This document shows, one piece after another, positions 15,359 through 47,278 of a stretch of 64,000 nucleotides of DNA. The position numbers and the translations under genes were made by a program. Source of the stretch: Candidatus Babeliales bacterium. Its GTDB lineage: Bacteria; Babelota; Babeliae; Babelales; JACPOV01. The DNA lies in contig JBAVOR010000016.1 of assembly GCA_049692255.1 (NCBI GenBank), positions 7,006 through 71,005 on the forward strand. Direction: 5' to 3'. Under the pieces are notes generated by a model. The model searched no databases and had not been told where the DNA came from. It saw only the letters and a program-made list of their open reading frames with translations. The stretch's first letter is position 1. The number at the start of each line of letters is the position of its first letter.

Positions 15359-16672
15359 TTATGAAATAGTGGTGGCCAGTGCGCTGAGTTTTTGGGTTAG
15401 CTGGGTAAGAGATTCGGTAAGCACGTTTGTTGAAGAACGGGGATTGCGGATCGGTTTCTCTGGCAACAGGGCCTCCTGACGCTTATAGATAAAGAAATAG
15501 CCGGTGGGACCGGTTGGCGAGCCGTTAATTTCAGTAATTGCATCAGCAGAAAGTTCTGTGCCTACACGGGTAATGGTGCTATCATCACACCGGTACCAAA
15601 CCTGTTCTTTTTTAACATAGGCCCAGTAATGACCCCCAGACAGACCGCCTCCTTGGACCACCACGCTACTTAATGCATAGTGTGATGCTGCTTTACTACT
15701 CGTTGATGCTAATGCAGGATGCAGGGGGCGGACCCACGGTGACACATCAAGCTCCAAAGGAATAGCGATGGCGTGATTCACTTTTTGACGGGCAAGAGCG
15801 GTATAGGTGTAACGGTTCACATTAATACAAAGATAGGGAGGTGTGGTTAAAAAAAATAATTGTTTGATACAATCAGTGCGCACGTGGCCGCTGTTATCTT
15901 TGTATGCATCGAGTAGTTCCGGTTTGAAATATACTGCTAAGCACGAAGCAAGATCGGTGAGCGGTGTTTGTTGCGCGTCCAAAGCGGGCACGGTAAGAAC
16001 GCCAGGGCCATTTTCTGCCGTATCAGTTTCTAGCAATGGGGTGGTTGGTGCCTCATGAGCAGGGCAAGAAATGCGCGATACATAGATATTATGAAACAAC
16101 TGTTTAATACGCGTCTGTTGTATTTTCTGTTGCAGCAATACTGATTGGGGATTTTGTTTTAACTGTTCTTGCAATTGAGCAAGCGCACTATTGAGTACCA
16201 CTGCTTCTTTGTCGGTTATCGCGTGGCTAGTGCAACTATCTAAAAAACGGATAATAAATTCTCCCGCATCTTGTTGCGAACATACTTGGGCCTCAAAGAA
16301 TTCATTGTATGCACTGTCGCCTAACTTTTTGAGAGGGCCTTGCGTACAAGAAAATGTATGGGTGCCATCCAGATACTGTTGCACCAGTTGCGTAAAATAA
16401 TGTGCAGTAGGGTTAGTTGCCAGAGGAAACAGGGTTGATGCATTAGATCCGTACAAAATAGAAGTGAACGCCGGAATGTTGAGAAGTGCTTGCACTGATG
16501 CATTTAAAAAGCAGGTGTTGCCGCAGTTAAGCAAAGCGGGTGGTGTTGCGTTGTTGTGCGCGTTCATTAACAAGAATATGGTACTAATAATACGCAACAC
16601 CTGCGATACGTTATTATTTCTCATGCAGTACCCTGTCAGGCGCATGCATGTTTCTATTTTTATGCCAGGCAT
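15359..16672 (-). CDS. Eukaryote-like ubiquitin-specific protease (USP/UCH, peptidase C19) deubiquitinase
   Basis: Cys box 'LLNCGNTCFLNASVQALL'. His box 'GGHYWAYVKKE'. Asp box 'WYRCDDSTITRV'. Confidence 0.8.
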   Translation of the reverse strand: MPGIKIETCMRLTGYCMRNNNVSQVLRIISTIFLLMNAHNNATPPALLNCGNTCFLNASVQALLNIPAFTSILYGSNASTLFPLATNPTAHYFTQLVQQYLDGTHTFSCTQGPLKKLGDSAYNEFFEAQVCSQQDAGEFIIRFLDSCTSHAITDKEAVVLNSALAQLQEQLKQNPQSVLLQQKIQQTRIKQLFHNIYVSRISCPAHEAPTTPLLETDTAENGPGVLTVPALDAQQTPLTDLASCLAVYFKPELLDAYKDNSGHVRTDCIKQLFFLTTPPYLCINVNRYTYTALARQKVNHAIAIPLELDVSPWVRPLHPALASTSSKAASHYALSSVVVQGGGLSGGHYWAYVKKEQVWYRCDDSTITRVGTELSADAITEINGSPTGPTGYFFIYKRQEALLPEKPIRNPRSSTNVLTESLTQLTQKLSALATTIS

Positions 16673-35402: not shown

Positions 35403-35441
35403 AAAAAGCCTCGACGAATGTAGATTCAGTCGGGGCTTTTT
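35403..35441 (+). terminator. Rho-independent terminator-like hairpin upstream of the giant gene
   Basis: 'aaaaagcctcgac-gaatgtagattca-gtcggggcttttt'. 8/9 bp stem flanked by an A-run and a T-run. Confidence 0.5.
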
Positions 35442-35596
35442 AATTTGAACTAAAAACGTATTTGATTATAAGAAATAATTTCGCTGCAAAAAAAAGCAAA
35501 AAAACTATTGTATAAGTATGCTTGCATTTTTTAAAAGGATTTGATTTTATCAATCTAATTGATTGTGTCCTGATATCTAAAAAAAGGTTGAGTGAT

Positions 35597-38500
35597 ATGT
35601 ATGGATTAACTATTTTTCTGGCGATGTTATTTTCTTCTTTTGCTTCTCTTGACGCTACTCTGCAAACAAGACGTTTTCATAATATTCTGGTTGGAAATAA
35701 TACCACTACAAATTATCTCAATGTTTTAAGACAAGTATTTATTGATGGGGATCTTTTTGTAAAGGGAACCATTAATGGTTCAGGGGGAAATTCAGGATTT
35801 ATTCAAGCAGTGCCAGGAGCGACGATTAATGCGGTACCACGGTTTGCTAATGCCAATGGTTCACAGCTCGCTAATTCTTCTGTTTTAATCGATAATGCGG
35901 GCAACGTCACGTTAAATGGTATTACTAAAAATGGTATTACTGTTGCATGGCCATCAACTGCTGGTGCTGCGGGCACGTTTTTAGCGAATGATGGTGCGGG
36001 TAATTTAGTATATGCTACCCCTGCTGGTGCAGGTAACGTATCAACAGCATTAAATTTTACCACTAACAATGCATTAACGCGTGTTGATCTACCCAGTGGA
36101 GTAAATAATATTCAACAATCGGTGGTGACGCTTGATAATAGCGGCAACATTGCCGGGGTGAATCAATTAGTAGCAGGAACTTTTTTTGGTTCTTTGCAAG
36201 GTAATGCGGCCAGTGCTACTAATTTTACTGGGTCATTAGCGGGTGATGTGAGTGGTACACAAACTGCTACTGTTGTCAATTCGGTAGGCGGTCAGTCTGC
36301 TGCTGCTGTGGCAAATGCTGCATTCGCAGTTACGAATGCAACGCCAAACAGTGTGCCGAACACGCTGGTTGAACGTGATGCATCACGTAACTTTAGTGCG
36401 GGTACTATTACGGCCAGCTTAATGGGCGCTGCATCATTAAATGTGCTAAAAAGTGGCGATACCATGACAGGCCCTTTGGTAATGGGGACGCAGACAGCAG
36501 TTCGTCTACAAGATGCGGGTGGTACGAACTATGTGGGGTTGAATGCACCCAGCAGTGTAACTAGTAGTTATACCATGAGCATGCCGGGCACAGCACCGGT
36601 CTCTGGGCAATTTTTACAAGCCTCTGCAGCCAATGCATTGCAGTGGGCAGACATTGGGGGTTTACCATCGACTGGTCGTACTATTTATGTATCAAAAGAT
36701 GGCAGTGATAGTAACGATGGTTCGCTTTCTGCTCCTTTTTTAACCGTTGCACATGCGTTACTAGTCGCTAATACGCTTTCAACAATTTCTAATCCTGTGG
36801 TGGTGCAAGTCGGCGCCGGTGCGTTTATAGAAAACAACTCTGGTGGCGCTTTGGCTATTACAGCAGATGGCATCACGCTTAAAGGTGGTTCAAACCAAGC
36901 AACCATTATTGCACCAACAACGTTATCGATTAACTTATTTAATGTGACAACTCCGAATGTATTATTCAGGGATATTAATCTCAACGCTGGTGTGAGTGGG
37001 TCTACGGCAGCTGCTATTAATATTAATGTGGGGGTCACGGGATTCGGCGGTGGTTGTACTAACGTAAACATTGCACAGTTCCAAACAGGTATTGCACTTA
37101 ACAATTCCAACAGCACTCCTCCCATATTTGTTATCAATTCTGTCAATGCGCAAGGCAATGGTACCGCTGTAGCGGTCAGTAATTACCGTCTTATTATGCA
37201 AAGTTCATCAATATTGGGCCCTTATCTTTCGAGCATTATTCAAAATACCGGCATTTCATTAACGGGTATTAATACGTTGGCAACCATAGATTCATGTGTG
37301 TTTAGATTGTTATTGAACGGCATTACGGTAGCTGGCGGTGCCCCTTTGCGCATTACTGGCAGCCAATTTATTAATATGCAAAACGGCATAGTGTGTTCAG
37401 GAGGGGGTAATGCAGACGTTGTTGGTTGTAATTTCCTGGTGAATACTACTAGTTCAATCAATGTCTCTGCATCAGGAGCTGGCACAACAGTAATAATTGA
37501 TGGTGCAATTTTTAATTGTGTTGATGCTACCAACACGCCGCAGGGAACTGCTGTGCAAGTAACAACGGGTGGATCATTAACGGTGAACTCATCCACTATT
37601 TCAGGTGCAGCACTTGGCATGCAAGCTGGCGCAGCAGGAGATACGAGTACGACAACACTGTTGTCTGTTGGTACCGATATTATTGGTTGTACCGCTGACT
37701 TTACTCAAGCAGGTACATCAACATTCAGATTTGTCGGCGGAGTATTTGATTCTAATTTGGTCACTATTGCCAACGGCACGAATGTCCATCTTTCTCTATT
37801 TGACAGAACCTCTGGCGAAGCATTAACGATTGGTAACAGCACAGATACGAGCCAAGTATTGTACCGCGCATTCAATGGTGAAGCATCATTACCTTTTACC
37901 TCGTATGAGCCAAACTATTATGGCTCTAAAGGGCTTCTTTTCCAAAATCCCAATGCAGATGCAACATTCAGTGGTGTGCAGGCAGCCAGTAATGATGCAA
38001 ACTATTATGTCGTTACCGGCAGCAATACGAATCAAGCGGGCATTAATTTAATTTCTGATACATTAAATATTGGGACTTCTGACTTTGTGCGTGGCTGGAA
38101 TATCAGCAAATTAGGCACATCAGGTAATTTAACGTTCAACTATTCAAATAATGACACTGGTGGCCAAGCAGCGCGCGGCAGCAACCCAGTGATGCAACTG
38201 GATGGCTTTAATAATCAGGTGTTATTTCCCGCGGCAATCAACTCGCCGCTACCGACAAACACCGTGGCTAAATTGGTCTGGAATGGTGATACCGATTTAT
38301 ATCGTGGTGCTGCAGGCACGCTGCAAACAGATGGTAATTTAATTGTTGGCGGTTTAACACCAAACACCGCTGTGACTACTAATGGCAGCGATCAATTAAC
38401 ATCGAGCGTAACCACTGCAACGGAACTGGGCTATGTGTCTGGCGTTACTTCTGCTATACAACCACAGATTAATAATAAAGTTTCAAAAACGGGTGACACG

Positions 38501-41500
38501 ATGACCGGGCCATTGATAATGGCAACACAAACCCCCATTCGTTTTCAAGATGCGGGAGGTGTTAACTATGCAGCTCTCAATGCACCAACTGCAGTAAGCA
38601 GTAGTTATACAGTCAGCTTGCCAACAGCGGCGCCGGCAGCAGCGCAATTTTTACAAGCAGCAACTCCGACAACATTGCAATGGGCAAGTATTGGGGGGGT
38701 GCCCAATGTGAGTCGTACCATCTACGTAGCACAGGGGGGTAATGATAGTAACGATGGCTCATTATCTGCCCCATTTGCTACAATTGCGCATGCGGTGGCA
38801 GTAGCTAATACGTTATCAACATTAACCAATCCGGTGGTGGTTCAAGTTGGTGCTGGCACCTTTATTGAAAATAATTCAGGTGGAGCAATTGCCATCACTG
38901 CAGATGGTATTACCATTAATGGCAGCTCTATTACGGGGACCATTGTAGTACCAAATACGATTTCTAATGCATTATTTAATGTAACAACACCGAACGTACT
39001 CTTTTCTAATATCTATCTCGATGCGGGAACTACGGGATCAACAGCAGCGGGTATTAACGTGAACACCAGTACTACTGGTGAAGGTGGCTGTCATGATATT
39101 GTGCTTTCGCGTTTCCAAACTGGCCTAGCTATCAATAATTCAAATGTAAGCAGCTCCCCTATATTTATTATTAGTTCAATCGAAACGCAAGGGAACAGCA
39201 CTGCTATTGCGGTCAATAATTACCGCGCTATTATTCAAGGTTCTTCATTCTTAGGGCCATTTGTTGCAGGGGCCATTGCGAATACCGGTATTGCATTGAC
39301 GGGAACTCAGACATTAGCAACCTTACTCGCTAACTCATTTCGATTGTTAAGTACTGGCATTACTATCACTGGTGGTGCAGATATGCGTATTACAGGCAGC
39401 AACTTTGATAACATGCAAAATGGGGTAAGCTGTTCTGGTGGCAGTAATGCAGAAATAGTGGGATGCAATTTTATAATTAATGAAGCATCATCGGTGAACA
39501 TATCGGCAGCGGGAGCTGGAACGAATGTTATAGTCAATGGTTGTATTATCGATTGTGCCGATGTGACTGATGCACAGCAAGGAACAGCAGTACAATCGAC
39601 AACCGGTGCAATATTGGTTGTTGGTGCATCAAATATTTCGGCAGCGGCTGTCGGTATCCAATGTGGCACCACGGGCGATACGAGTAGTACCATAGTTGCT
39701 GTATTTTCTACGAATCTGGTTGGTTGTATTAATGATATTACTCAAGTAGCTACAGCAAACCTTCAATTTGTAGGTGGTGTATTTGATTCCAACTTACTGA
39801 GCATTGCCAACAGTGCCAACGTAACCATTTCTGCATTTGATCGATTTTCTAATAATGCGTTAACAATTGGTAATAAAACTGATGTTAGTCAACCTCTTTA
39901 TAAAGTATTAAATGGTGAAGCCTCGTTACCATTTACCTCTTATGAACCAAACTATTATGGCAATAAAGGGCTTCTGTATCAAAACCCGAATGCTGACGCA
40001 ACATTTAATGGTGTGCAAGCGGCCAGCAATGATGCTAACTATTATGTCATTACCGGCAGCAATACCAACCAAGCAGGCATCAACTTAATTTCTGATACAT
40101 TAAATATTGGGACTTCTGATTTTGTGCGTGGTTGGAATATCAGTAAATTGGGTACGTCAGGTAATTTAACATTCAACTATTCAAATAATGACACTGGTGG
40201 CCAAGCAGCGCGTGGTAGCAATCCAGTGATGCAGCTTGATGGATTTAATAATCAAGTGTTATTTCCCGCGGCAATCAATTCACCGCTACCGACAAACACC
40301 GTGGCTAAATTGGTCTGGAATGGTGATACCGATTTATATCGTGGTGCGGCAGGCACGCTGCAAACAGATGGTAATTTAATTGTTGGCGGTTTAACACCAA
40401 ACACCGCTGTGACTACTAATGGCAGCGATCAATTAACATCAAGCGTAACCACTGCAACGGAAATTGGATTTGTTTCTGGCGTCACTTCTGCAATACAGAC
40501 CCAGCTTAATAGTAAATTTCCTGCATCGGGTGGTACATTGACCGGTCCGCTGACATTACCTGCAGGAACTGCAGCGGCGCCATCATTAAATTTTGCTGGA
40601 AGCACTACTACGGGCCTTTCTGCCGCAACGGCAAATACGTTATCCTTTGATACGAATGGTGTTGAACGAATGAAAATCGGAGCAACGGGGACGATAGCTA
40701 TTGATGGATTTACCACTGCGGGTGTAGTACATAATGACGCAAGTGGAAATTTGAGCAGTTCGTTAATTGTTGATGCAGATATTACTACTGGCACCATTAC
40801 CGATGATAAATTACAAACGATTACCACCGGCGGCAAAGTAGCAAACTCTGCTACCACTGCAACATCAGCAAATACACTCAGTACCATTGTCTTGCGTGAT
40901 GGGACTACTGGTGGTTTTAGTGCTGGTGCAATCAGCGCAACGAGCGTAACGGCATCAGCAAATCCTGGATTTTTTGGTAATTTATCGGGCAATGCGACAA
41001 GCGCAACTACTGCTGCATCTGCTACGAGCTTTACTGGTCCATTGCTCGGTGATGTGACCGGTACGCAAAGTGCAACGGTAGTATCAACCGTTGGTGGAGC
41101 TACTGCGGCTGCAGTAGCAACGGCTGCTAATGCAGTAGCCAATGCAACTAATCTGGCTACACCAAGCACCTTGGTATTGCGCGATAGTTCCGGTAATTTT
41201 AGCGGAGGAACTATTACTGCCACAACAGGCTTTTCAGGGAACTTGACGGGTAATGTGACTGGCAATGCCACAACGGCAACGAGCGCAAACACGGCTGGGT
41301 CAGCAACTAATTTTACTGGCTCATTGTCTGGTGATGTCACAGGAACACAGGGCGCAACGGTGGTGAGCTTTGTTGGAGGAAAATCGGCTGCATCAGTTGC
41401 CAATACCGTTACTACCGTGAATGCAGCAACAAGCAATAACACACCAAATACGCTTGTCTTACGTGACGGTAGTGGTAACTTTACTACTAATCAGATTACT

Positions 41501-44500
41501 ATTGCCGGTTCGGTAACAAATCCAACAGATACAGCAACCAAAGCATATGTTGATAGCGTCGCAGCAACCGGGTTAGAAGTGCATACCCCTGCAGTAGTAG
41601 TCAGTACCACTAATGTTGCACTCAGCGGGCTACAAACGATTGATGGCATAACACTAGTTGCTGGAAATCGTGTACTTTTGGTTGGCCAGACCAGTCAAGT
41701 GCAAAATGGGTTATGGGTAGCAGCATCAGGTTCATGGACACGACCAACCGATTTCGCAACGGGTACTGAGGCAGGCCAAGCATATGTGCTTATTTTAGAA
41801 GGTACTAATTTTGGCGGCTCAAGTTGGGTATGTACGACGTCCACAGCAATCATTGATACAGATCCAATTACTTTTGTTGAGTTTTCCCTACCATCACAAA
41901 CTACGGGGGCCAATTTAGGTTCTGGTACTGGTATTTTTGCTAACAAAACTGGCCAAACGCTTAACTTTAAAAGTTTGCTGGAAGGAACCCATGTTGTTAT
42001 AACCAATGATGCTAATACGGTAACACTGGCAACCGACGCAACGAGCGCAGACACCATCAGCACTATAGTAGCACGTGATGGTTCCGGTAATTTTAGTGCA
42101 GGTACTATTACCGCGAGTTTAATTGGTGCGGCATCATTAAACGTATTAAAAGCGGGTGATACCATGACAGGGCCATTAGTTATGGCTACCCAAACGCCAA
42201 TACGTTTTCAAGACGCTGGTGGCACAAACTATGCGGCATTACAGGCTCCAGCAGCGGTAAGTAGCAGTTATGCCGTTGCATTACCGACCGCTGCACCAAA
42301 TGCGGGGCAATATTTACAAGCACTTTCGTCTACTTCCTTACAATGGGCATCGGTCGGTGGTACACCAAACGTGAGTCGTACTATATACGTATCCCAAGAT
42401 GGAAGTGATAGTAATAATGGGTCATTCTCATCACCATTTTTAACTATTGCGCATGCAGTATCGGTTGCAAATAGTCTTTCGACATTAACTAATCCGGTAG
42501 TAATTCAAGTGGGTGCAGGGGTGTTTGTAGAAGATAACTCTGGCGGCGCTATTACTATTACGGCAGATGGCATTACTTTAAATGGTGCGTCTACGATCGG
42601 CACCATCGTAGTGCCAAACACCTTATCAAACACGCTGTTTAATGTTACATCGCCGAATGTGTTATTTTCTAATATCTATCTCGATGCGGGAACTACGGGA
42701 TCTACTGCAGCGGGCGTAACGATCAATACAAGTATCACCGGTGATGGTGGATTTTTAAATGTAGTTCTTTCTCGCTTCCAGACCGGTTTGTCAATTAATA
42801 ACTCAAATATAAGTAGTACGCCGATATTTATCGCTGATGGTATTGAAACGCAAGGCAATGGTACAGCTATCGCGGTAACCAATTACCGTGTTATTATTCA
42901 ATGTTCATCGTTCTTAGGGCCTTTTGGTAACGCAGGATCAATTCAAAATACTGGAATTGCATTGACTGGATCAAGCACATTAGCAACGATGTTGGCCTGC
43001 TCATTTCGTTTATTGAATACGGGTATTTCGGTAACAGGCGGAGCGGCCATGCGTACTACGGGAAATAATTTTGATAATATGCAAAATGGTATTGTCTGCT
43101 CTGGGGGCGGTGATGCGAATATTGTTGGTTGTAACTTTCTTGTTAATGAATCTTCTTCAGTGAACGTGTCTGTAGCGGGCGTTGGTACTGAAGCTATAGT
43201 TAGTAGTTGCATATTCGATTGCCCTGATGCAACTGATACGCCGCAAGGTACAGTGGTGCAAGCAACAACTGGTGCATCATTAACAGTTAATTCATCTACC
43301 ATAACGGGGGCCGTTGTTGGTATTCAATGTGGTACGACTGGAGATACCAGCAGTACTGTGGTTACGATAGATTCAACTGATTTGCAAGAATGCACTAATG
43401 ATATTATGCAAGTGGGTACGTCGACGCTTCGTTTTGTAGGTGGCGTATTTGATACGAATGCAATAAGTATTGCCGATGGTACCAATGTGCATATTTCTGC
43501 TTTTGATAGAACTTCTGGTGAAGCGTTAACGATTGGTAATAATACTGATGCGAGTCAAATGGTGTATCGTGTGCTCAATGGCCAAGCCGCATTACCTTTT
43601 GTATCGTATGAGCCCAACTATTATGGCAACAAAGGACTTTTATATGAAAACGCCAATGCAGATGCAACATTTAATGGTGTGCAAGCAGCAAGTAACGATG
43701 TGAGTTATTATTTAGTTACGGGCAATAACACGAATCAGGCGAGTATTAATTTAATTTCTGATACGGTCAATTTTGGCACTAGTGATTCGGTACGTGGCTG
43801 GAATATTAGTAAATTGGGTACATCTGCTAATTTGACCTTCAATTATTCGAACAATGACACCAGCGGACAAGCAGCACGCGGTAACAATCCGGTGATGCAA
43901 CTCGATGGATTTAATAATCAGGTTTTATTTCCGGCTGCTACCAATACCCCATTACCAACTAACACTGTAGCAAAATTAGTTTGGGCTGGTGATACGAATC
44001 TATATCGCACAGCTGCCAATACGCTGCAAACGGATGGTAATTTTATTATCGGTGGCAATCTCACTGTTGATGCTCTAACGTCTGGTGCAGTAAATCCAAA
44101 TACCGCTATAGTGACTAACGGAACTAATCAATTACTTTCCAGTGTTACCACGGCAACGGAAATTGGATTTGTTTCTGGCGTCACTTCGTCAATACAAACA
44201 CAGCTGAATAGTAAATTTCCTGCATCGGGTGGTACATTGACCGGTCCGCTGACATTACCTGCAGGAACTGCAGCGGCACCATCATTAAATTTTACGGGCA
44301 GCACTACTACGGGCCTTTCTGCTGCAACGGCAAATACGTTATCATTCGATACGAATGGTGTTGAAGCTATGAATATTAATGCAAGTGGGGTAGTGAGTAT
44401 TGATGCATTTACCACTGCAGGTGTAGTACATAACAATGCAAGTGGTAATTTGAGCAGCTCCCTTATTGTTGATGCAGACATTACTACTGGCACCATTACC

Positions 44501-47278
44501 GATGATAAATTACAAACAATTACCACCGGCGGCAAGGTGGCGAACTCTGCTACCACCGCAACACCAGCGAATACCGCAAATGCCATTGTATCACGTGACG
44601 CGAGTGGTAATTTTGCTGCTGGTGCAATCACCGCTAACACGTTTACTGCTAACTCAAATCCTGGGTTCTTTGGTAATCTGTCGGGCAACGCATCTACCGC
44701 AACATCTGCCACCACTGCCATTAGCTTTACCGGGCCTTTGCTGGGTGATGTGACTGGTACGCAAAGTGCAACGGTAGTATCAATGGTAGGCGGCCAAACT
44801 GCGGCAGTAGTGGCAGCTGCGGCATCGGCAGTTGCAAATGCATCGAGCGCAAACAATCCGGGCACTCTGGTGCTACGTGACGGCTCTGGTAATTTTGCTG
44901 CAGGTAAGATTACTATTACAGGAGGCACCGCTGCTGCACCATCATTACAGTTTAGCAATGGTACCAACACAGGATTCTCATCGCCTTCAGCCAATACATT
45001 GTCATTTGATGTGAATGGTACACAGGCGTTGGGCATTGCAACGAATACAAACGCAACATTTGCGGGTACTGTTACTGCTTCCTCCGGTTTTTTTGGCCCA
45101 TTAACAGGTAACGTTACGGGTAATATAACTGGTTCAGTGACATTACCTGCAGGCACTGCTGCGGTTCCATCATTGCAGTTTAGTAATGGCACCAACACCG
45201 GTATGTCTTCACCGGTTGCTAACACCTTGTCATTTGATATCAGTGGTGCTGAAGCAATGAATATTAATACAAGTGGTGTGGTCACCATTGATGCATTTAC
45301 TACCGCTGGTGTGGTGCATAACAATGCGAGTGGTAATTTGAGCAGTTCGCTGATTGTTGATGCAGACATTACTACGGGCACTATTACTGATGATAAATTG
45401 CAAACGATTAGTACGGGTGGCAAAGTTGCAAATTCTGCTACCACCGCAACACCAGCAAATACCGCAAATGCCATAGTATCTCGCGATGCGAGTGGTAATT
45501 TTGCTGCTGGTGCAATCACTGCAAACACATTCACTGCCAACTCTAATCCCGGATTTATCGGCAACTTATCGGGCAACGCGTCGACTTCAACATCAGCAAC
45601 CACAGCGGTTAGTTTTACTGGCCCATTGATGGGTGATGTTACTGGTAACCAGACAGCAACCGTGGTATCAACAGTTGGTGGTGCATCAGCAGCTTCAGTA
45701 GCGAGCACGGTTACTACCGTTAACGCAGCAACCAGTTCAAATATTGCAAGCACATTAGTGCTGCGTAACGGCACAGGCGGATTTAGTGCAGGCACTATCA
45801 ATGCAACCAGTTTTGTAGGACCGCTTACCGGTAATGTTACCGGTAACGTTACTGGCAACATTACCGGTTTAGTGACATTGCCAGCAGGCACTGCTGCAGC
45901 GCCATCATTAAACTTTACCGGTAGTTTGACCACTGGTCTTTCTGCCGCAACAGCAAATAGATTATCTTTTGACACGAATGGCACTGAACAGATGGCAATC
46001 GGTGCAACCGGCACTATTACTATGACCAGCTTAGCTGGCACGGCAGGAGTAGTGCACAATGATGCGAGCGGTAATTTAAGCAGTTCTTTAATTGTTAACG
46101 CAGACGTATCTGCAACTGCAGCAATAGTAGACACCAAACTTGGTACCATTCAAACAGCAGGCAAAGTGTTAAACTCTGCCACTACTGCTACCAGTGCCAA
46201 TACTGCAAATGCTATTGTTGCTCGCGATGCGAGTGGCAACTTTAGTGCGGGCACCATTACCGCCAGCTTGATGGGTGCAGTAACATTACCCGCAGGGACT
46301 GCCGCCGTGCCATCATTGCAATTTACGGGAAGTAGCAATACCGGCCTTTCAGCAGCGACGGCAAATAGGTTATCATTTGACACCAGTGGTGCTGAGCGTA
46401 TGAGTATTAGCCCAGTTGGTACCGTGGCGATTAATGGTTTTGTGACTACGGGTGTAGTGCATAACGATGCGAGCGGTAACTTATCAAGTTCTTTAATTGT
46501 TGATGCAGACATTACTACCGGTACTATTACCAATGATAAATTAGTAACTCTTACAGCAACAGGCTTAGTAGCAAACTCTGCGACCACAGCCACCACAGCG
46601 AATACCTTGAGCACGATAGTGCTACGTGATGGAACAACTGGTGGCTTTAGCGCAGGTACCATTACGGCAACATTTTCAGGAAATTTATCTGGTAATGTTA
46701 CCGGCAATCTTACGGGGAATGTGATAGGCTCGGCTTCATTAAACGTGTTAAAAGCAGGTGATACGATGACTGGTACATTAACGTTACCAGCAGGCACTGC
46801 TGCAGCGCCATCATTACAATTTACGGGCAGTACTAATACGGGTATCTCGGCCCCATCAGCTAATACATTGTCATTTGATGTGAATGGTACGCAGGGGCTA
46901 AGTATTACTACAGCGGCTATTATTGATGCGTTGCCATGGTGTAATCAGGCAATAATGAGCGCAACACCAACAACGGGCAGTACTATTACGACCACTGCTA
47001 CTACTTCAATTTTATTGCTCAAAAATACAACAAACGTTACTGGTGTGACTATTGATTTCCCACCTAATCCAACGAATGGTCAGATGTTTACCATTATGTT
47101 AGGCACGACCAGCACTATTACTATGACCAACGCAGGGGGTACGGGCGGTGCAACTATTGTTAATGGCGTTACTGGTTTAAATGCTACTGCTACACCGACT
47201 GCCACAGCAAACGGCGCAGCGGTTGCCTACTTGTATAGCTCAACTTCAAATGCATGGTATCGCATGTGGCGTGGATAA
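35597..47278 (+). CDS. Giant (~3,890 aa) secreted fibrous protein: 3 pectate-lyase-like beta-helix modules plus ~15 phage-tail-fibre-like repeats
   Basis: Single uninterrupted ORF. Start at signal peptide 'MYGLTIFLAMLFSSFASLDA' (the ORF is open from 35522). Each beta-helix module begins 'SGDTMTGPL...RTIYVS.DGSDSNDGS.S.PF.T.AHA...NPVV.QVGAG.F.ENNSGGA..ITADGIT'. About 15 repeats of '...NT...LV.RD.SGNFSAG.ITA' and 'LPAGTAAAPSL.F.G...TG.S...ANTLSFD.NG.E.M'. Confidence 0.85.
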   Translation: MYGLTIFLAMLFSSFASLDATLQTRRFHNILVGNNTTTNYLNVLRQVFIDGDLFVKGTINGSGGNSGFIQAVPGATINAVPRFANANGSQLANSSVLIDNAGNVTLNGITKNGITVAWPSTAGAAGTFLANDGAGNLVYATPAGAGNVSTALNFTTNNALTRVDLPSGVNNIQQSVVTLDNSGNIAGVNQLVAGTFFGSLQGNAASATNFTGSLAGDVSGTQTATVVNSVGGQSAAAVANAAFAVTNATPNSVPNTLVERDASRNFSAGTITASLMGAASLNVLKSGDTMTGPLVMGTQTAVRLQDAGGTNYVGLNAPSSVTSSYTMSMPGTAPVSGQFLQASAANALQWADIGGLPSTGRTIYVSKDGSDSNDGSLSAPFLTVAHALLVANTLSTISNPVVVQVGAGAFIENNSGGALAITADGITLKGGSNQATIIAPTTLSINLFNVTTPNVLFRDINLNAGVSGSTAAAININVGVTGFGGGCTNVNIAQFQTGIALNNSNSTPPIFVINSVNAQGNGTAVAVSNYRLIMQSSSILGPYLSSIIQNTGISLTGINTLATIDSCVFRLLLNGITVAGGAPLRITGSQFINMQNGIVCSGGGNADVVGCNFLVNTTSSINVSASGAGTTVIIDGAIFNCVDATNTPQGTAVQVTTGGSLTVNSSTISGAALGMQAGAAGDTSTTTLLSVGTDIIGCTADFTQAGTSTFRFVGGVFDSNLVTIANGTNVHLSLFDRTSGEALTIGNSTDTSQVLYRAFNGEASLPFTSYEPNYYGSKGLLFQNPNADATFSGVQAASNDANYYVVTGSNTNQAGINLISDTLNIGTSDFVRGWNISKLGTSGNLTFNYSNNDTGGQAARGSNPVMQLDGFNNQVLFPAAINSPLPTNTVAKLVWNGDTDLYRGAAGTLQTDGNLIVGGLTPNTAVTTNGSDQLTSSVTTATELGYVSGVTSAIQPQINNKVSKTGDTMTGPLIMATQTPIRFQDAGGVNYAALNAPTAVSSSYTVSLPTAAPAAAQFLQAATPTTLQWASIGGVPNVSRTIYVAQGGNDSNDGSLSAPFATIAHAVAVANTLSTLTNPVVVQVGAGTFIENNSGGAIAITADGITINGSSITGTIVVPNTISNALFNVTTPNVLFSNIYLDAGTTGSTAAGINVNTSTTGEGGCHDIVLSRFQTGLAINNSNVSSSPIFIISSIETQGNSTAIAVNNYRAIIQGSSFLGPFVAGAIANTGIALTGTQTLATLLANSFRLLSTGITITGGADMRITGSNFDNMQNGVSCSGGSNAEIVGCNFIINEASSVNISAAGAGTNVIVNGCIIDCADVTDAQQGTAVQSTTGAILVVGASNISAAAVGIQCGTTGDTSSTIVAVFSTNLVGCINDITQVATANLQFVGGVFDSNLLSIANSANVTISAFDRFSNNALTIGNKTDVSQPLYKVLNGEASLPFTSYEPNYYGNKGLLYQNPNADATFNGVQAASNDANYYVITGSNTNQAGINLISDTLNIGTSDFVRGWNISKLGTSGNLTFNYSNNDTGGQAARGSNPVMQLDGFNNQVLFPAAINSPLPTNTVAKLVWNGDTDLYRGAAGTLQTDGNLIVGGLTPNTAVTTNGSDQLTSSVTTATEIGFVSGVTSAIQTQLNSKFPASGGTLTGPLTLPAGTAAAPSLNFAGSTTTGLSAATANTLSFDTNGVERMKIGATGTIAIDGFTTAGVVHNDASGNLSSSLIVDADITTGTITDDKLQTITTGGKVANSATTATSANTLSTIVLRDGTTGGFSAGAISATSVTASANPGFFGNLSGNATSATTAASATSFTGPLLGDVTGTQSATVVSTVGGATAAAVATAANAVANATNLATPSTLVLRDSSGNFSGGTITATTGFSGNLTGNVTGNATTATSANTAGSATNFTGSLSGDVTGTQGATVVSFVGGKSAASVANTVTTVNAATSNNTPNTLVLRDGSGNFTTNQITIAGSVTNPTDTATKAYVDSVAATGLEVHTPAVVVSTTNVALSGLQTIDGITLVAGNRVLLVGQTSQVQNGLWVAASGSWTRPTDFATGTEAGQAYVLILEGTNFGGSSWVCTTSTAIIDTDPITFVEFSLPSQTTGANLGSGTGIFANKTGQTLNFKSLLEGTHVVITNDANTVTLATDATSADTISTIVARDGSGNFSAGTITASLIGAASLNVLKAGDTMTGPLVMATQTPIRFQDAGGTNYAALQAPAAVSSSYAVALPTAAPNAGQYLQALSSTSLQWASVGGTPNVSRTIYVSQDGSDSNNGSFSSPFLTIAHAVSVANSLSTLTNPVVIQVGAGVFVEDNSGGAITITADGITLNGASTIGTIVVPNTLSNTLFNVTSPNVLFSNIYLDAGTTGSTAAGVTINTSITGDGGFLNVVLSRFQTGLSINNSNISSTPIFIADGIETQGNGTAIAVTNYRVIIQCSSFLGPFGNAGSIQNTGIALTGSSTLATMLACSFRLLNTGISVTGGAAMRTTGNNFDNMQNGIVCSGGGDANIVGCNFLVNESSSVNVSVAGVGTEAIVSSCIFDCPDATDTPQGTVVQATTGASLTVNSSTITGAVVGIQCGTTGDTSSTVVTIDSTDLQECTNDIMQVGTSTLRFVGGVFDTNAISIADGTNVHISAFDRTSGEALTIGNNTDASQMVYRVLNGQAALPFVSYEPNYYGNKGLLYENANADATFNGVQAASNDVSYYLVTGNNTNQASINLISDTVNFGTSDSVRGWNISKLGTSANLTFNYSNNDTSGQAARGNNPVMQLDGFNNQVLFPAATNTPLPTNTVAKLVWAGDTNLYRTAANTLQTDGNFIIGGNLTVDALTSGAVNPNTAIVTNGTNQLLSSVTTATEIGFVSGVTSSIQTQLNSKFPASGGTLTGPLTLPAGTAAAPSLNFTGSTTTGLSAATANTLSFDTNGVEAMNINASGVVSIDAFTTAGVVHNNASGNLSSSLIVDADITTGTITDDKLQTITTGGKVANSATTATPANTANAIVSRDASGNFAAGAITANTFTANSNPGFFGNLSGNASTATSATTAISFTGPLLGDVTGTQSATVVSMVGGQTAAVVAAAASAVANASSANNPGTLVLRDGSGNFAAGKITITGGTAAAPSLQFSNGTNTGFSSPSANTLSFDVNGTQALGIATNTNATFAGTVTASSGFFGPLTGNVTGNITGSVTLPAGTAAVPSLQFSNGTNTGMSSPVANTLSFDISGAEAMNINTSGVVTIDAFTTAGVVHNNASGNLSSSLIVDADITTGTITDDKLQTISTGGKVANSATTATPANTANAIVSRDASGNFAAGAITANTFTANSNPGFIGNLSGNASTSTSATTAVSFTGPLMGDVTGNQTATVVSTVGGASAASVASTVTTVNAATSSNIASTLVLRNGTGGFSAGTINATSFVGPLTGNVTGNVTGNITGLVTLPAGTAAAPSLNFTGSLTTGLSAATANRLSFDTNGTEQMAIGATGTITMTSLAGTAGVVHNDASGNLSSSLIVNADVSATAAIVDTKLGTIQTAGKVLNSATTATSANTANAIVARDASGNFSAGTITASLMGAVTLPAGTAAVPSLQFTGSSNTGLSAATANRLSFDTSGAERMSISPVGTVAINGFVTTGVVHNDASGNLSSSLIVDADITTGTITNDKLVTLTATGLVANSATTATTANTLSTIVLRDGTTGGFSAGTITATFSGNLSGNVTGNLTGNVIGSASLNVLKAGDTMTGTLTLPAGTAAAPSLQFTGSTNTGISAPSANTLSFDVNGTQGLSITTAAIIDALPWCNQAIMSATPTTGSTITTTATTSILLLKNTTNVTGVTIDFPPNPTNGQMFTIMLGTTSTITMTNAGGTGGATIVNGVTGLNATATPTATANGAAVAYLYSSTSNAWYRMWRG
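36452..38489 (+). repeat. Beta-helix module copy 1 (intragenic ~2.04 kb tandem unit)
   Basis: Starts 'agtggcgataccatgacaggccc'. Its 3' part (38100-38440) is more than 95% identical to 40140-40480. Confidence 0.7.
38490..40440 (+). repeat. Beta-helix module copy 2
   Basis: Starts 'acgggtgacacgatgaccgggcc'. Protein-level co-linear with copies 1 and 3. Confidence 0.7.
40441..42153 (+). repeat. Tail-fibre-like repeat array 1
   Basis: 'EIGFVSGVTSAIQTQLNSKFPASGGTLTGPLTLPAGTAAAPSL...'. 40461-40665 is about 95% identical to 44161-44365. Confidence 0.65.
42154..44150 (+). repeat. Beta-helix module copy 3
   Basis: Starts 'gcgggtgataccatgacagggcc'. The flanking 'gcatcattaaacgt.ttaaaag' is shared with copy 1. 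Confidence 0.7.
44151..46790 (+). repeat. Tail-fibre-like repeat array 2 (about 6 units of irregular length)
   Basis: 'LPAGTAA(A/V)PSL' recurs at about 44257, 45143, 45880, 46285 and 46783. 'VHN(D/N)ASGNLSSSLIVDADITTGTITDDKL' recurs four times. Confidence 0.65.

What the first reader, a model, noticed from the sequence alone, without database searches (positions are those of the whole stretch)
35597..47278. Giant ~3,900-aa secreted fibrous protein built from beta-helix and phage-tail-fibre-like repeats
It is one uninterrupted 11.7 kb ORF with a signal peptide. Three ~680 aa modules each begin 'SGDTMTGPL' and contain '...RTIYVS.DGSDSNDGSLS.PF.T.AHA...NPVV.QVGAG.F.ENNSGGA.ITADGIT'. That segment is the classic N-terminal cap and first rungs of pectin-lyase-fold right-handed beta-helices, as in tailspikes and pectate lyases. 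About 15 repeats of roughly 90-100 aa follow the pattern '(LPAGTAAAPSL)...ANTLSFD.NG.E...GVVHN.ASGNLSSSLIVDADITTGTITDDKL...LV.RD.SGNFSAG.ITA'. From memory these resemble the 'GGTMTG.L' phage tail fibre repeat; that match is unverified. A C-terminal '...GNRVLLVGQTSQVQNGLWVAASGSWTRPTDF' resembles the receptor-binding tips of tail fibres. The whole architecture looks like a chain of phage receptor-binding modules fused into a cell-surface fibre. In a host-associated bacterium this is a prime candidate for a host-attachment or invasion organelle, or for a domesticated phage-derived structure.
Basis: partly seen in the sequence, partly recalled or inferred. Interest (0 to 1): 0.85.

Follow-up and report, generated by a model that had tools for sequence, protein, structure and literature searches.

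The report
Giant phage-fibre-like surface protein of Dependentiae
This is a real 3,893-residue exported protein of an uncultured intracellular parasite of protists (Babeliales). It is built from phage tail-fibre and tailspike-like parts and belongs to a large undescribed family that most likely forms long surface fibres for recognising host cells.

Summary
The ORF is real: window 35597-47278, + strand, 3,893 aa, no internal stops. It is identical to NCBI MGB8467931.1, a "hypothetical protein" of a Candidatus Babeliales (Dependentiae/TM6) MAG.

Domain order: signal peptide, conserved N-domain, two alternating fibre units (L, g), three ~680-aa modules, one phage "knob" in mid-protein, and a C-terminal beta-sandwich.

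Each module holds a right-handed beta-helix plus an unresolved "b" domain. The helix model has pLDDT 80-95 and matches phi29 gp12, Sf6/HK620 tailspikes, AlgE4 and PfbA. The knob and fibre motifs hit phage tail-fibre and capsid-decoration proteins. Pfam and NCBIfam find nothing.

The module profile finds 286 cluster representatives at E<=1e-30, 1,000-7,500 aa. All ten placeable loci are Dependentiae, and neighbours are housekeeping genes, not prophage.

Across the family the N-domain is constant while the C-terminus varies (this beta-sandwich, Peptidase_S74, C1q, WD40). That is the logic of the Bdellovibrio MAT fibres.

Module copies are old duplicates under purifying selection (dN/dS 0.07-0.17), so this is not an assembly artefact.

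Best reading: a Sec-exported, probably trimeric, host-recognition fibre. Surface location, trimer state and ligand are all inferred, not shown.

The parts
35597..35656 (+). Predicted Sec signal peptide (aa 1-20, MYGLTIFLAMLFSSFASLDA|T)
   Evidence: This is the only N-terminal hydrophobic segment. Homologues carry classical signal peptides at the same position. An SD-like AGG/GAG lies upstream of the ATG. No predictor was run.
35657..36196 (+). Conserved N-terminal domain 'N' (aa 21-200; ...NAVPRFANANG...ITKNGITVAWPS..GTFL..DGAGNLVYATPAG.GNVST...)
   Evidence: Found right after the signal peptide in 31 family members and loci. It stays the same when the C-terminal tip differs. There is no PDB or Pfam hit. 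Proposed to be the cell-proximal anchor (inference).
36197..36454 (+). First fibre segment (g unit: GDVSGTQ...ERDASRNFSAGTITA...GDTMTG)
   Evidence: phrog_5342 tail fiber, E 1.6e-12. 64-74% identity over ~40 aa to T4-like cyanophage tail-fibre proteins.
36455..38491 (+). Module A (aa 287-965): linker, beta-helix (aa ~356-745, nt 36662-37831), 'b' domain (aa ~746-935), tail
   Evidence: Self-similarity. Local domain mapping. dN/dS against the other copies is 0.08-0.17.
38492..40528 (+). Module B (aa 966-1644): beta-helix plus 'b' domain; this is the copy that was modelled
   Evidence: AF2 pLDDT is 80-95 for segment residues 70-445. Foldseek against PDB: phi29 gp12 E 1.4e-5, AlgE4, Sf6/HK620 tailspikes, PfbA, all probability 1.0. 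The 'b' half has pLDDT <50 and no PDB relative.
40529..41566 (+). Fibre stretch 1 (aa 1645-1990): one L unit (LPAGTA...VVHNDASGNL...) and g units (GDVTGTQ x2)
   Evidence: Motif census. PHROG tail fiber and head decoration hits.
41567..41926 (+). 'Knob' domain K (aa 1991-2110; ...GNRVLLVGQTSQVQNGLWVAASGSWTRPTDF...)
   Evidence: PDB 9nx3_A capsid decoration protein, E 8.1e-12. Twelve PHROGs down to E 3e-21. tblastn hits in 331 phage records annotated tail fiber or head decoration.
41927..42154 (+). Short fibre linker (RDGSGNFSAGTITA...GDTMTG) between the knob and module C
   Evidence: The recurrent cassette K-L-g-B-b is seen across the family.
42155..44227 (+). Module C (aa 2187-2877): beta-helix plus 'b' domain
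   Evidence: 61-82% identical to modules A and B in 100-aa tiles. dN/dS 0.07-0.14.
44228..46918 (+). Fibre stretch 2 (aa 2878-3774): alternating L and g units; L units start at aa 2887, ~3107, 3183, 3428, 3564, 3730
   Evidence: PHROG tail fiber and structural protein hits.
46919..47278 (+). C-terminal beta-sandwich domain 'C' (aa 3775-3893, ends WYRMWRG) plus the stop codon

Best explanation
The gene encodes one member of a large, uncharacterised protein family of giant modular fibres, so far placed only in Dependentiae.

Proposed working (inferred unless marked otherwise):
- The protein is exported by Sec through its N-terminal signal peptide. It probably crosses the outer membrane through the type II secretion/GspD machinery that TM6 genomes conserve.
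- It is held at the cell surface by the family-constant N-terminal domain.
- It probably assembles as a parallel trimer, like the phage fibres and spikes its parts come from. Some relatives end in the Peptidase_S74 trimerisation chaperone.
- The shaft is made of two alternating small phage-type beta units (L, g).
- Strung along the shaft are three tailspike-like right-handed beta-helix modules, each followed by a highly conserved 'b' domain, and one phage 'knob' domain.
- The distal end is a beta-sandwich tip, which is one of several interchangeable tips in the family.
- The beta-helix modules and the tip are proposed to bind, and possibly cleave, surface glycans of the phagotrophic protist host. 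This would mediate attachment and uptake and so contribute to host range.

Shown here: the domain architecture, the folds of the beta-helix and the C-terminal domain, homology of the knob and fibre units to phage proteins, the family's distribution, and purifying selection.

Inferred only: export route, trimeric state, orientation (N proximal, C distal), ligand, and any enzymatic activity.
For: - The ORF is intact and matches a Babeliales MAG protein.
- The context is chromosomal housekeeping: MnmG, GT4, amino-acid permease, Ogt, DEAD helicase, RpoD, DnaG, RNR. There are no phage genes.
- The beta-helix fold is supported. The knob and fibre units are phage-homologous.
- The C-terminal beta-sandwich resembles phage tailspike/fibre gp10-like domains.
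- Family size: 286 representatives at E<=1e-30, many of 1,500-7,500 aa.
- All 9 genome loci are Dependentiae/TM6, and the named cluster members are Babeliaceae.
- The architecture follows the grammar N-(Lg)n-K-Lg-Bb-(Lg)n-L-C, with 1-5 modules.
- The N-domain is constant while the C-terminus swaps between this domain, Peptidase_S74 (53.7 and 49.9 bits), C1q (27.9 bits), BclA_C-like and WD40. Bdellovibrio MAT surface fibres have the same design (PMC10769870).
- Module copies have saturated dS (1.3-2.0) with dN/dS 0.07-0.17.
- TM6 genomes conserve a T2SS with two GspD copies (PMC4776705). Dependentiae enter their hosts by phagotrophy (PMC6561590).
Against: - There is no experimental or proteomic evidence of expression or surface location.
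- No trimer modelling was possible.
- The window's own signal peptide lacks a basic n-region.
- The 'b' domain (the most conserved part) and the N-domain have unknown folds.
- The C-terminal fold resembles phage domains that act as virion-proximal docking modules (CBA120 TSP4-N, gp34 proximal part). The polarity could therefore be reversed, or the tip could dock another protein rather than a host ligand.
- No conserved partner gene that could act as an anchor or exporter was found next to the gene in ten loci.
- No catalytic residues were identified.
- The Dependentiae genomics papers I read do not mention surface fibres.
Confidence: 0.6

Rival explanations
1. It is primarily a secreted or surface-tethered polysaccharide depolymerase. 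The three beta-helix modules would be glycoside hydrolase, lyase or epimerase domains that digest host glycocalyx, cyst or cell wall, or food-vacuole contents. The fibre parts would be mere spacers.
For: Foldseek top hits include enzymes with this fold: tailspike endoglycosidases (Sf6, HK620, CBA120), AlgE4/AlgE6 epimerases, rhamnogalacturonan lyase, GH55, GH87 and GH110. The cap motif matches beta-helix enzymes 3vst and 5olq. Several acidic or polar residues are invariant in the helix: E122, D392, D411, Q414, D446.
Against: Non-enzymatic beta-helix adhesins match equally well (PfbA). There is no sequence membership in any CAZy-type Pfam family. The long fibre, the knob and the swappable lectin-like tips (C1q, WD40) point to binding. 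Enzyme and adhesin roles are not mutually exclusive, as in tailspikes.
Confidence: 0.17
2. It is a non-specific structural coat, a hair-like 'nap' around the infectious cell comparable to the BclA nap of Bacillus exospores or to giant-virus fibrils. It would increase apparent size and stickiness to trigger phagocytosis, or protect the cell, rather than recognise a specific receptor.
For: One relative ends in a BclA_C-like domain, and others end in C1q domains like BclA. Hosts are phagotrophs. The composition is extremely Thr/Ser/Asn/Gly/Ala-rich, as in fibrous coats.
Against: The diversity of tips and the divergence of the three beta-helix copies under purifying selection (55-78% identity, dN/dS ~0.1-0.17) suggest distinct specificities rather than bulk material. 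Only one or two genes per genome were seen.
Confidence: 0.15
3. It is a prophage or phage tail-fibre/tailspike gene sitting in the bacterial contig.
For: PHROG, PDB and tblastn hits to phage tail-fibre, virion and decoration proteins.
Against: There are no phage genes within +/-30 kb, and the neighbours are housekeeping genes. It has an N-terminal signal peptide. The full module is absent from 50,697 phage genomes and from IMG/VR, where only the cap matches. Homologues lie in different, non-syntenic chromosomal contexts in ten Dependentiae loci.
Confidence: 0.02
4. The giant ORF is an assembly artefact, a chimeric or expanded repeat produced by short-read MAG assembly.
For: It is highly repetitive. 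One 450-nt stretch is 91-95% identical between modules A and B. The source is a MAG.
Against: The longest exact DNA repeat between A and B is only 92 nt. Copies differ mostly at synonymous sites, with saturated dS. Relatives of 3,225-4,436 aa with 2-3 modules occur on contigs of 0.7-1.4 Mb, including one complete chromosome. The frame stays open for 3,918 codons.
Confidence: 0.04

Closest known systems
Bdellovibrio bacteriovorus MAT (mosaic adhesive trimer) fibre proteins (Caulton et al. 2024, PMC10769870)
   Same: Both have a signal peptide followed by a family-constant beta-rich N-terminal domain, then a long phage-like beta fibre. C-terminal tips are interchangeable and include Peptidase_S74 and TNF/C1q-like folds. 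Both belong to a bacterium that must recognise and enter another cell.
   Different: - This protein is 3-7 times longer.
- It carries up to three (relatives up to five) complete tailspike-type beta-helix + 'b' modules and a phage knob in line within the shaft.
- Its host is a eukaryote.
- Homology of the two N-domains was not testable here.
Phage tailspikes and branched tail-fibre systems (P22/Sf6/HK620 tailspikes, phi29 gp12, CBA120 TSP1-4, T4 gp34/gp10)
   Same: The beta-helix fold matches. The C-terminal region resembles TSP4-N/gp10-like domains and the long-tail-fibre proximal subunit. The fibre motifs RDxxGNFxAGxITA and GDTMTG are shared with T4-like cyanophage tail fibres. Relatives carry the S74 chaperone.
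   Different: This is a cellular, Sec-exported protein in a housekeeping context. Several spike-like modules are fused in series in one chain, whereas phages assemble them from separate proteins. The module has no full-length phage homologue.
Phage capsid decoration / head-fibre proteins with the 'NGLW' domain (PDB 9nx3; Gordonia phage Yvonnetastic gp56; phrog_2647)
   Same: The knob domain (aa 1991-2110) is homologous: E 8e-12 to 9nx3 and 45-51% identity to phage proteins.
   Different: Here it is a single internal bead in a 3,893-aa fibre, placed just upstream of a beta-helix module (cassette K-L-g-B-b). It is not a capsid-bound protein.
Beta-helix adhesins of intracellular and pathogenic bacteria exported by type V secretion (chlamydial Pmps, pertactin, Hbp) and PfbA
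   Same: A right-handed beta-helix is used as a surface adhesion module (PfbA hit). These are large paralogous families in host-dependent bacteria.
   Different: There is no C-terminal beta-barrel translocator and no Autotransporter or Chlam_PMP Pfam hit. The C-terminus is a 119-aa beta-sandwich.
Bacillus exosporium BclA nap
   Same: A trimeric hair-like fibre with a C1q/TNF-like tip. One relative has a BclA_C-like end, and others have C1q ends.
   Different: BclA has a collagen-like shaft and no beta-helix modules. The window protein itself has a different tip.

Membership tests
Right-handed parallel beta-helix (pectin-lyase fold) superfamily | Three-strand-per-rung right-handed parallel beta-helix with an N-terminal cap | tested here: met
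   The AF2 model of module B has pLDDT 80-95 over ~375 residues, with regular short strands. All 48 Foldseek hits at E<=1e-3 are beta-helix proteins.
Right-handed parallel beta-helix (pectin-lyase fold) superfamily | Sequence membership in Pfam Beta_helix / Pectate_lyase_3 / related models | tested here: not met
   There is no Pfam hit at E<=1 for the whole protein or the separate modules, nor for ten relatives. Only the cap motif aligns weakly to 3vst and 5olq, E 0.03-0.12.
Right-handed parallel beta-helix (pectin-lyase fold) superfamily | Catalytic groove residues of a glycosidase, lyase or epimerase | not testable with these tools
   Invariant acidic residues exist, but they could not be placed on the model or matched to a known active site.
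Pfam Phage_fiber_2 (PF03406) tail-fibre repeat | Match to the repeat profile | tested here: not met
   No hit at E<=1. The G[DG]T[ML]TG motif occurs 6 times, but that is only a short resemblance.
Chlorovirus glycoprotein repeat (PF06598) | Match to the repeat profile | tested here: not met
   No hit at E<=1.
Phage tail-fibre / virion structural protein families (PHROGs 5342, 11518, 28766, 2824, 2647, 27782) | Significant profile match | tested here: met
   phrog_5342 tail fiber, E 8e-22 for the whole protein. The knob matches 12 PHROGs, E 1e-12 to 3e-21. The matches cover the fibre units and the knob only, not the beta-helix module, the N-domain or the C-domain.
Bdellovibrio MAT fibre family | Signal peptide followed by a family-constant N-terminal domain | tested here: met
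   The same layout is present within this family. Homology to the MAT N-domain itself could not be tested because no sequence or structure was available.
Bdellovibrio MAT fibre family | Interchangeable C-terminal tips, including Peptidase_S74 | tested here: met
   This holds for the wider family: S74 in P0068 and P0033, C1q in P0051, WD40 in P0047, BclA_C-like in P0075. The window protein carries a non-S74 tip.
Bdellovibrio MAT fibre family | Detectable sequence or structure homology to solved MAT fragments | tested here: not met
   [not shown]
Bdellovibrio MAT fibre family | Intertwined trimer; surface localisation | not testable with these tools
   No multimer prediction was available and there are no experimental data.
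Type V (autotransporter) adhesins, including chlamydial Pmps | C-terminal beta-barrel translocator domain | tested here: not met
   The C-terminus is a 119-aa beta-sandwich. There is no Autotransporter or Pmp Pfam hit.
Prophage-encoded tail fibre | Location within a phage gene cluster | tested here: not met
   The neighbours over the whole 64-kb window are cellular genes. No tRNA is present. There is no shared synteny among loci.
T9SS cargo (C-terminal sorting domain) | CTD beta-sandwich similar to the Por_Secre_tail domain | tested here: not met
   [not shown]

The most novel reading that the evidence does not exclude
Dependentiae carry a phylum-specific host-recognition apparatus domesticated from phage receptor-binding proteins. 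It would be a trimeric fibre roughly 0.2-0.3 um long, comparable to the cell's own diameter. That length is an extrapolation from the ~550 A modelled for the ~900-aa MAT fibre Bd3182. Several complete tailspike-like modules (1-5 per chain), a capsid-decoration knob and a swappable tip would be arranged in series, a 'string of tailspikes' not described for any phage or cell. Module number, module divergence and tip type would set which protists a lineage can attach to and be taken up by. The gp10-like C-terminal domain might even dock further fibres, as the CBA120 TSP4 N-terminal region does.
Probability: 0.3. Interest if true: 0.78.

Novelty: new variant of a known kind. Interest (0 to 1): 0.62.

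Why it matters
Dependentiae (TM6/Babelota) are a widespread, almost entirely uncultured phylum of obligate parasites of protists. How they recognise and enter hosts is unknown. The genomics papers I could read discuss ankyrin effectors, transporters and type IV pili, but no adhesin.

This family is a concrete, sequence-defined candidate for the host-recognition structure. It has a readable modular code (number of beta-helix modules, tip type) that could be compared with host range across MAGs and tested in the few cultured strains.

It would also be a second case, with no detectable sequence or fold match to the solved Bdellovibrio MAT fragments, of a cell-invading bacterium building surface fibres from phage receptor-binding parts. 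The architecture, with in-line tailspike modules, has not been seen in phages.

The family is invisible to Pfam and NCBIfam and is annotated only as 'hypothetical protein'.

Tried and rejected
- **Curated libraries:** Pfam on the whole protein and on eight pieces gave only sub-threshold noise (Prefoldin, PilY2, Kre9, SSrecog). NCBIfam gave nothing.
- **Word-indexed protein search, module:** it found only 5 relatives. This badly underestimates the family compared with the exhaustive profile search.
- **Word-indexed protein search, other domains:** the C-terminal domain alone found nothing, not even itself. The N-domain profile found only 9 mostly fragmentary hits.
- **PDB profile searches:** the 'b' domain, the N-domain and the C-terminal region gave no significant hit.
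- **Modelling limits:** the AF2 model of the 'b' half of the module was unusable (pLDDT <50). The afdb50 fold library was unavailable.
- **tblastn against phages:** the fibre region 44234-45496 found nothing, probably because of low-complexity masking.
- **Conserved neighbour genes** (anchor, chaperone, exporter): none found; only antisense shadow ORFs clustered.
- **Rfam and tRNA scans** of the window were empty.
- **Literature:** searches for 9NX3 and for fibres or adhesins in Dependentiae returned nothing relevant.
- **Rejected readings:** prophage origin, assembly artefact, autotransporter and T9SS cargo (see rival explanations and membership tests).
Full report
**1. Observation**

Frame +1 is open from 35522 to 47278, 3,918 codons. 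The probable start is the ATG at 35597, about 10 nt downstream of an AGG/GAG stretch. This gives a 3,893-aa protein with no internal stop. That exact sequence is NCBI MGB8467931.1, [quoted passage not shown], on a 71-kb contig.

The protein is 58% Thr, Ala, Gly, Ser and Asn. Its only N-terminal hydrophobic segment is aa 1-16, followed by SLDA|T. Homologues have textbook signal peptides at the same place.

Tiled self-BLAST shows three ~680-aa modules, at aa ~287-965, 966-1644 and 2187-2877. It also shows many shorter repeats.

Two details of the finding are wrong:
- The short repeats are two interleaved unit types. There are seven L units (LPAGTA...), five of them full length, and five g units (GDVTGTQ...). 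There are not 15 copies of one 90-100-aa unit.
- The "GNRVLLVGQ...NGLW...WTRPTDF" motif lies in mid-protein (aa ~2024-2054), not at the C-terminus.

**2. Context**

The window is ordinary chromosome:
- Cell wall, metabolism and membrane: a Mur ligase, H+-PPase, ribonucleotide reductase, Lgt.
- Information processing: RpoD, DnaG, MnmG, Ogt, a DEAD-box helicase, UmuDC.
- Next to the giant gene: a GT4 transferase and an amino-acid permease.

There are no phage genes, no tRNA and no Rfam hit. No other copy or fragment of the gene lies elsewhere in the window.

**3. Anatomy and fold evidence**

*Beta-helix.* An AF2 model of module B, built from an 8-sequence alignment, is confident (pLDDT 80-95) for ~375 residues of regular short strands. 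Foldseek against the PDB returns only right-handed beta-helix proteins:
- phi29 gp12 (E 1.4e-5)
- AlgE4/AlgE6 epimerases
- Sf6, HK620 and CBA120 tailspikes
- the pneumococcal adhesin PfbA

By sequence, only the cap motif (RTIYV..G.DSN.GS...PF.T) aligns weakly to beta-helix enzymes. Pfam sees nothing.

*'b' domain.* The following ~190 aa (YEPNYYG...VRGWNISK...NNDT.GQAARG...DTNLYR...L.TDGN) is the best-conserved part of the module. It was not modelled (pLDDT <50) and has no PDB relative.

*Knob.* This domain is homologous to a solved phage capsid decoration protein (9nx3, E 8e-12). It also matches tail-fibre, head-decoration and virion PHROGs. tblastn hits appear in 331 phage genomes.

*Fibre units.* These hit tail-fibre PHROGs (phrog_5342, E 8e-22). 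The RDxxxNFSAGTITA...GDTMTG stretch is 64-74% identical to T4-like cyanophage tail fibres.

- the N-terminal gp10-like domains of CBA120 TSP4
- an Acinetobacter phage tailspike
- the long-tail-fibre proximal subunit of phage KP1
- the repeat domains of the protease CpaA

Foldseek agrees on the targets but more weakly (E 1e-3 to 5e-2).

*N-domain.* It has no detectable relative outside the family.

**4. The family**

A profile of the module was searched exhaustively against 1.84 billion cluster representatives. It finds:
- 6,788 proteins at E<=1e-3
- 286 proteins at E<=1e-30
- about 130 proteins with near full-length module matches

Many of these are giants, up to 6,021 and 7,500 aa.

A scan of one genome per GTDB species found nine loci, all in Dependentiae/TM6/Babeliales MAGs or SAGs. 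They carry ORFs of 1,482-4,436 aa, some on contigs of 0.7-1.4 Mb. Two named relatives are adjacent paralogues in a Babeliaceae MAG. The scan used a single peptide pattern, so the apparent restriction to Dependentiae rests on few genomes.

I mapped domains locally with jackhmmer over 161 proteins. This gives a clear grammar: N-(L g)n-K-L-g-B-b-(L g)n-L-C.
- The minimal complete member is 1,012 aa (N L g B b L C).
- Modules number from one to five.
- K-L-g-B-b is a recurrent cassette.

The N-domain is constant, but the C-terminus is not:

| C-terminal ending | Example | Score |
|---|---|---|
| WYRxxRG beta-sandwich (as here) | 38 proteins | local mapping |
| Peptidase_S74 intramolecular chaperone | P0068, P0033 | 53.7, 49.9 bits |
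| C1q | P0051 | 27.9 bits |
| BclA_C-like | P0075 | 34 bits, below the cut-off of 38 |
| WD40/PD40 propeller | P0047 | WD40 54.8 bits |
| Unassigned ends | several | none |

No gene is conserved next to the family gene across loci. The full module is absent from 50,697 phage genomes and from IMG/VR. There, only the ~100-aa cap region matches viral proteins, at 29-44% identity.

**5. Evolution and assembly**

Between the three module copies, synonymous sites are saturated (dS 1.3-2.0) while dN/dS is 0.07-0.17. The copies are therefore old and each is kept by selection.

One patch, the 'b' core of copies A and B, has dS 0.29 and dN/dS 0.01. This indicates a more recent gene conversion.

The longest exact DNA repeat between A and B is 92 nt. 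Together with similarly built relatives on megabase contigs, this argues against an assembly chimera.

**6. Mechanism (inference)**

The parts come from proteins that are obligate trimers (tail fibres, tailspikes, S74-chaperoned spikes, C1q/BclA tips). A parallel trimeric fibre is therefore the most economical model.

The constant N-domain with variable C-terminus argues that export and anchoring information is N-terminal and that the C-terminus is the distal, ligand-facing end. This is the arrangement argued for Bdellovibrio MAT fibres (PMC10769870).

Export would be by Sec, then probably by the T2SS/GspD system conserved in TM6 (PMC4776705). Dependentiae are diderm and reach their hosts by being ingested (PMC6561590).

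I therefore propose that the fibre binds, and perhaps trims, host-surface glycans through its beta-helix modules and tip, promoting attachment and uptake.

The main caveat is that the C-domain resembles phage domains that dock proteins to each other. Reversed polarity or fibre-fibre docking cannot be excluded.

**7. Comparison and novelty**

It is not any of the following:
- An autotransporter: there is no beta-barrel.
- T9SS cargo: no match to a T9SS sorting domain was found, and the C-terminus varies within the family.
- A prophage gene.

I did not explicitly test for the C-terminal repeats of RTX adhesins. No Pfam model of any kind matched, and the protein has an N-terminal signal peptide.

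The in-line fusion of several tailspike-like modules with a capsid-decoration knob in one exported chain, in a phylum of protist parasites, appears undescribed in the papers I could search. I rate it a new variant of a known kind: phage-derived bacterial surface fibres.

Noticed in passing
window 44128-46149 (-), 40429-41442 (-), 46150-46797 (-): Long antisense ORFs (673, 337 and 215 aa) lie inside the giant gene. Similar antisense ORFs occur in all related loci and cluster together by BLAST. They look like shadow ORFs caused by the Thr/Ala/Gly/Ser-rich repeats, not genes.
   Followed up: partly
window 15359-16672 (-): A 437-aa protein matches the eukaryotic-type ubiquitin C-terminal hydrolase family (UCH/USP, PF00443, E 4.6e-38). 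This is a eukaryote-like deubiquitinase, typical of effectors of intracellular bacteria.
   Followed up: no
window 35408-35445 (+): By eye: an 8-bp GC-rich hairpin (GCCTCGAC...GTCGGGGC, 13-nt loop) followed by TTTTT, about 150 nt upstream of the giant gene's ATG. It may terminate the upstream 107-aa ORF and leave the giant gene as its own transcription unit. The terminator scan missed it because the loop exceeds 8 nt.
   Followed up: no
window 37994-38440 vs 40031-40480: This patch of the 'b' domain is 91-95% identical in DNA between modules A and B, against 61-69% for the rest of the modules. In this patch dS is 0.29 and dN/dS is 0.01. This is evidence of intragenic gene conversion.
   Followed up: yes
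L001 8903-21080: In MAG CAVUUR010000004.1 the homologous region is split into three consecutive same-strand ORFs (1,826, 1,009 and 1,155 aa). Together they have the N...C architecture, so this is a frameshifted or pseudogenised copy, a sequencing error, or a genuine split.
   Followed up: no
P0010 / P0024 (MFA6066704.1 / MFA6066703.1, locus tags WC707_05995 / WC707_05990): Two family members of 3,971 and 2,509 aa have consecutive locus tags in a Candidatus Babeliaceae MAG, so tandem paralogues exist. TM6 GW2011_GWF2_30_66 also has two copies, on separate contigs (L008, L009).
   Followed up: partly
window 53185-55022 (-): A UmuD-like (Peptidase_S24) and UmuC-like (IMS, Y-family polymerase) gene pair, in a genome type usually described as highly reduced.
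   Followed up: no
P0153 (228 aa, contig 484,552 bp): A short protein matches almost the whole N-domain profile (E 1.4e-65). It is either a stand-alone N-domain protein or a truncated gene call at the start of a family member.
   Followed up: no
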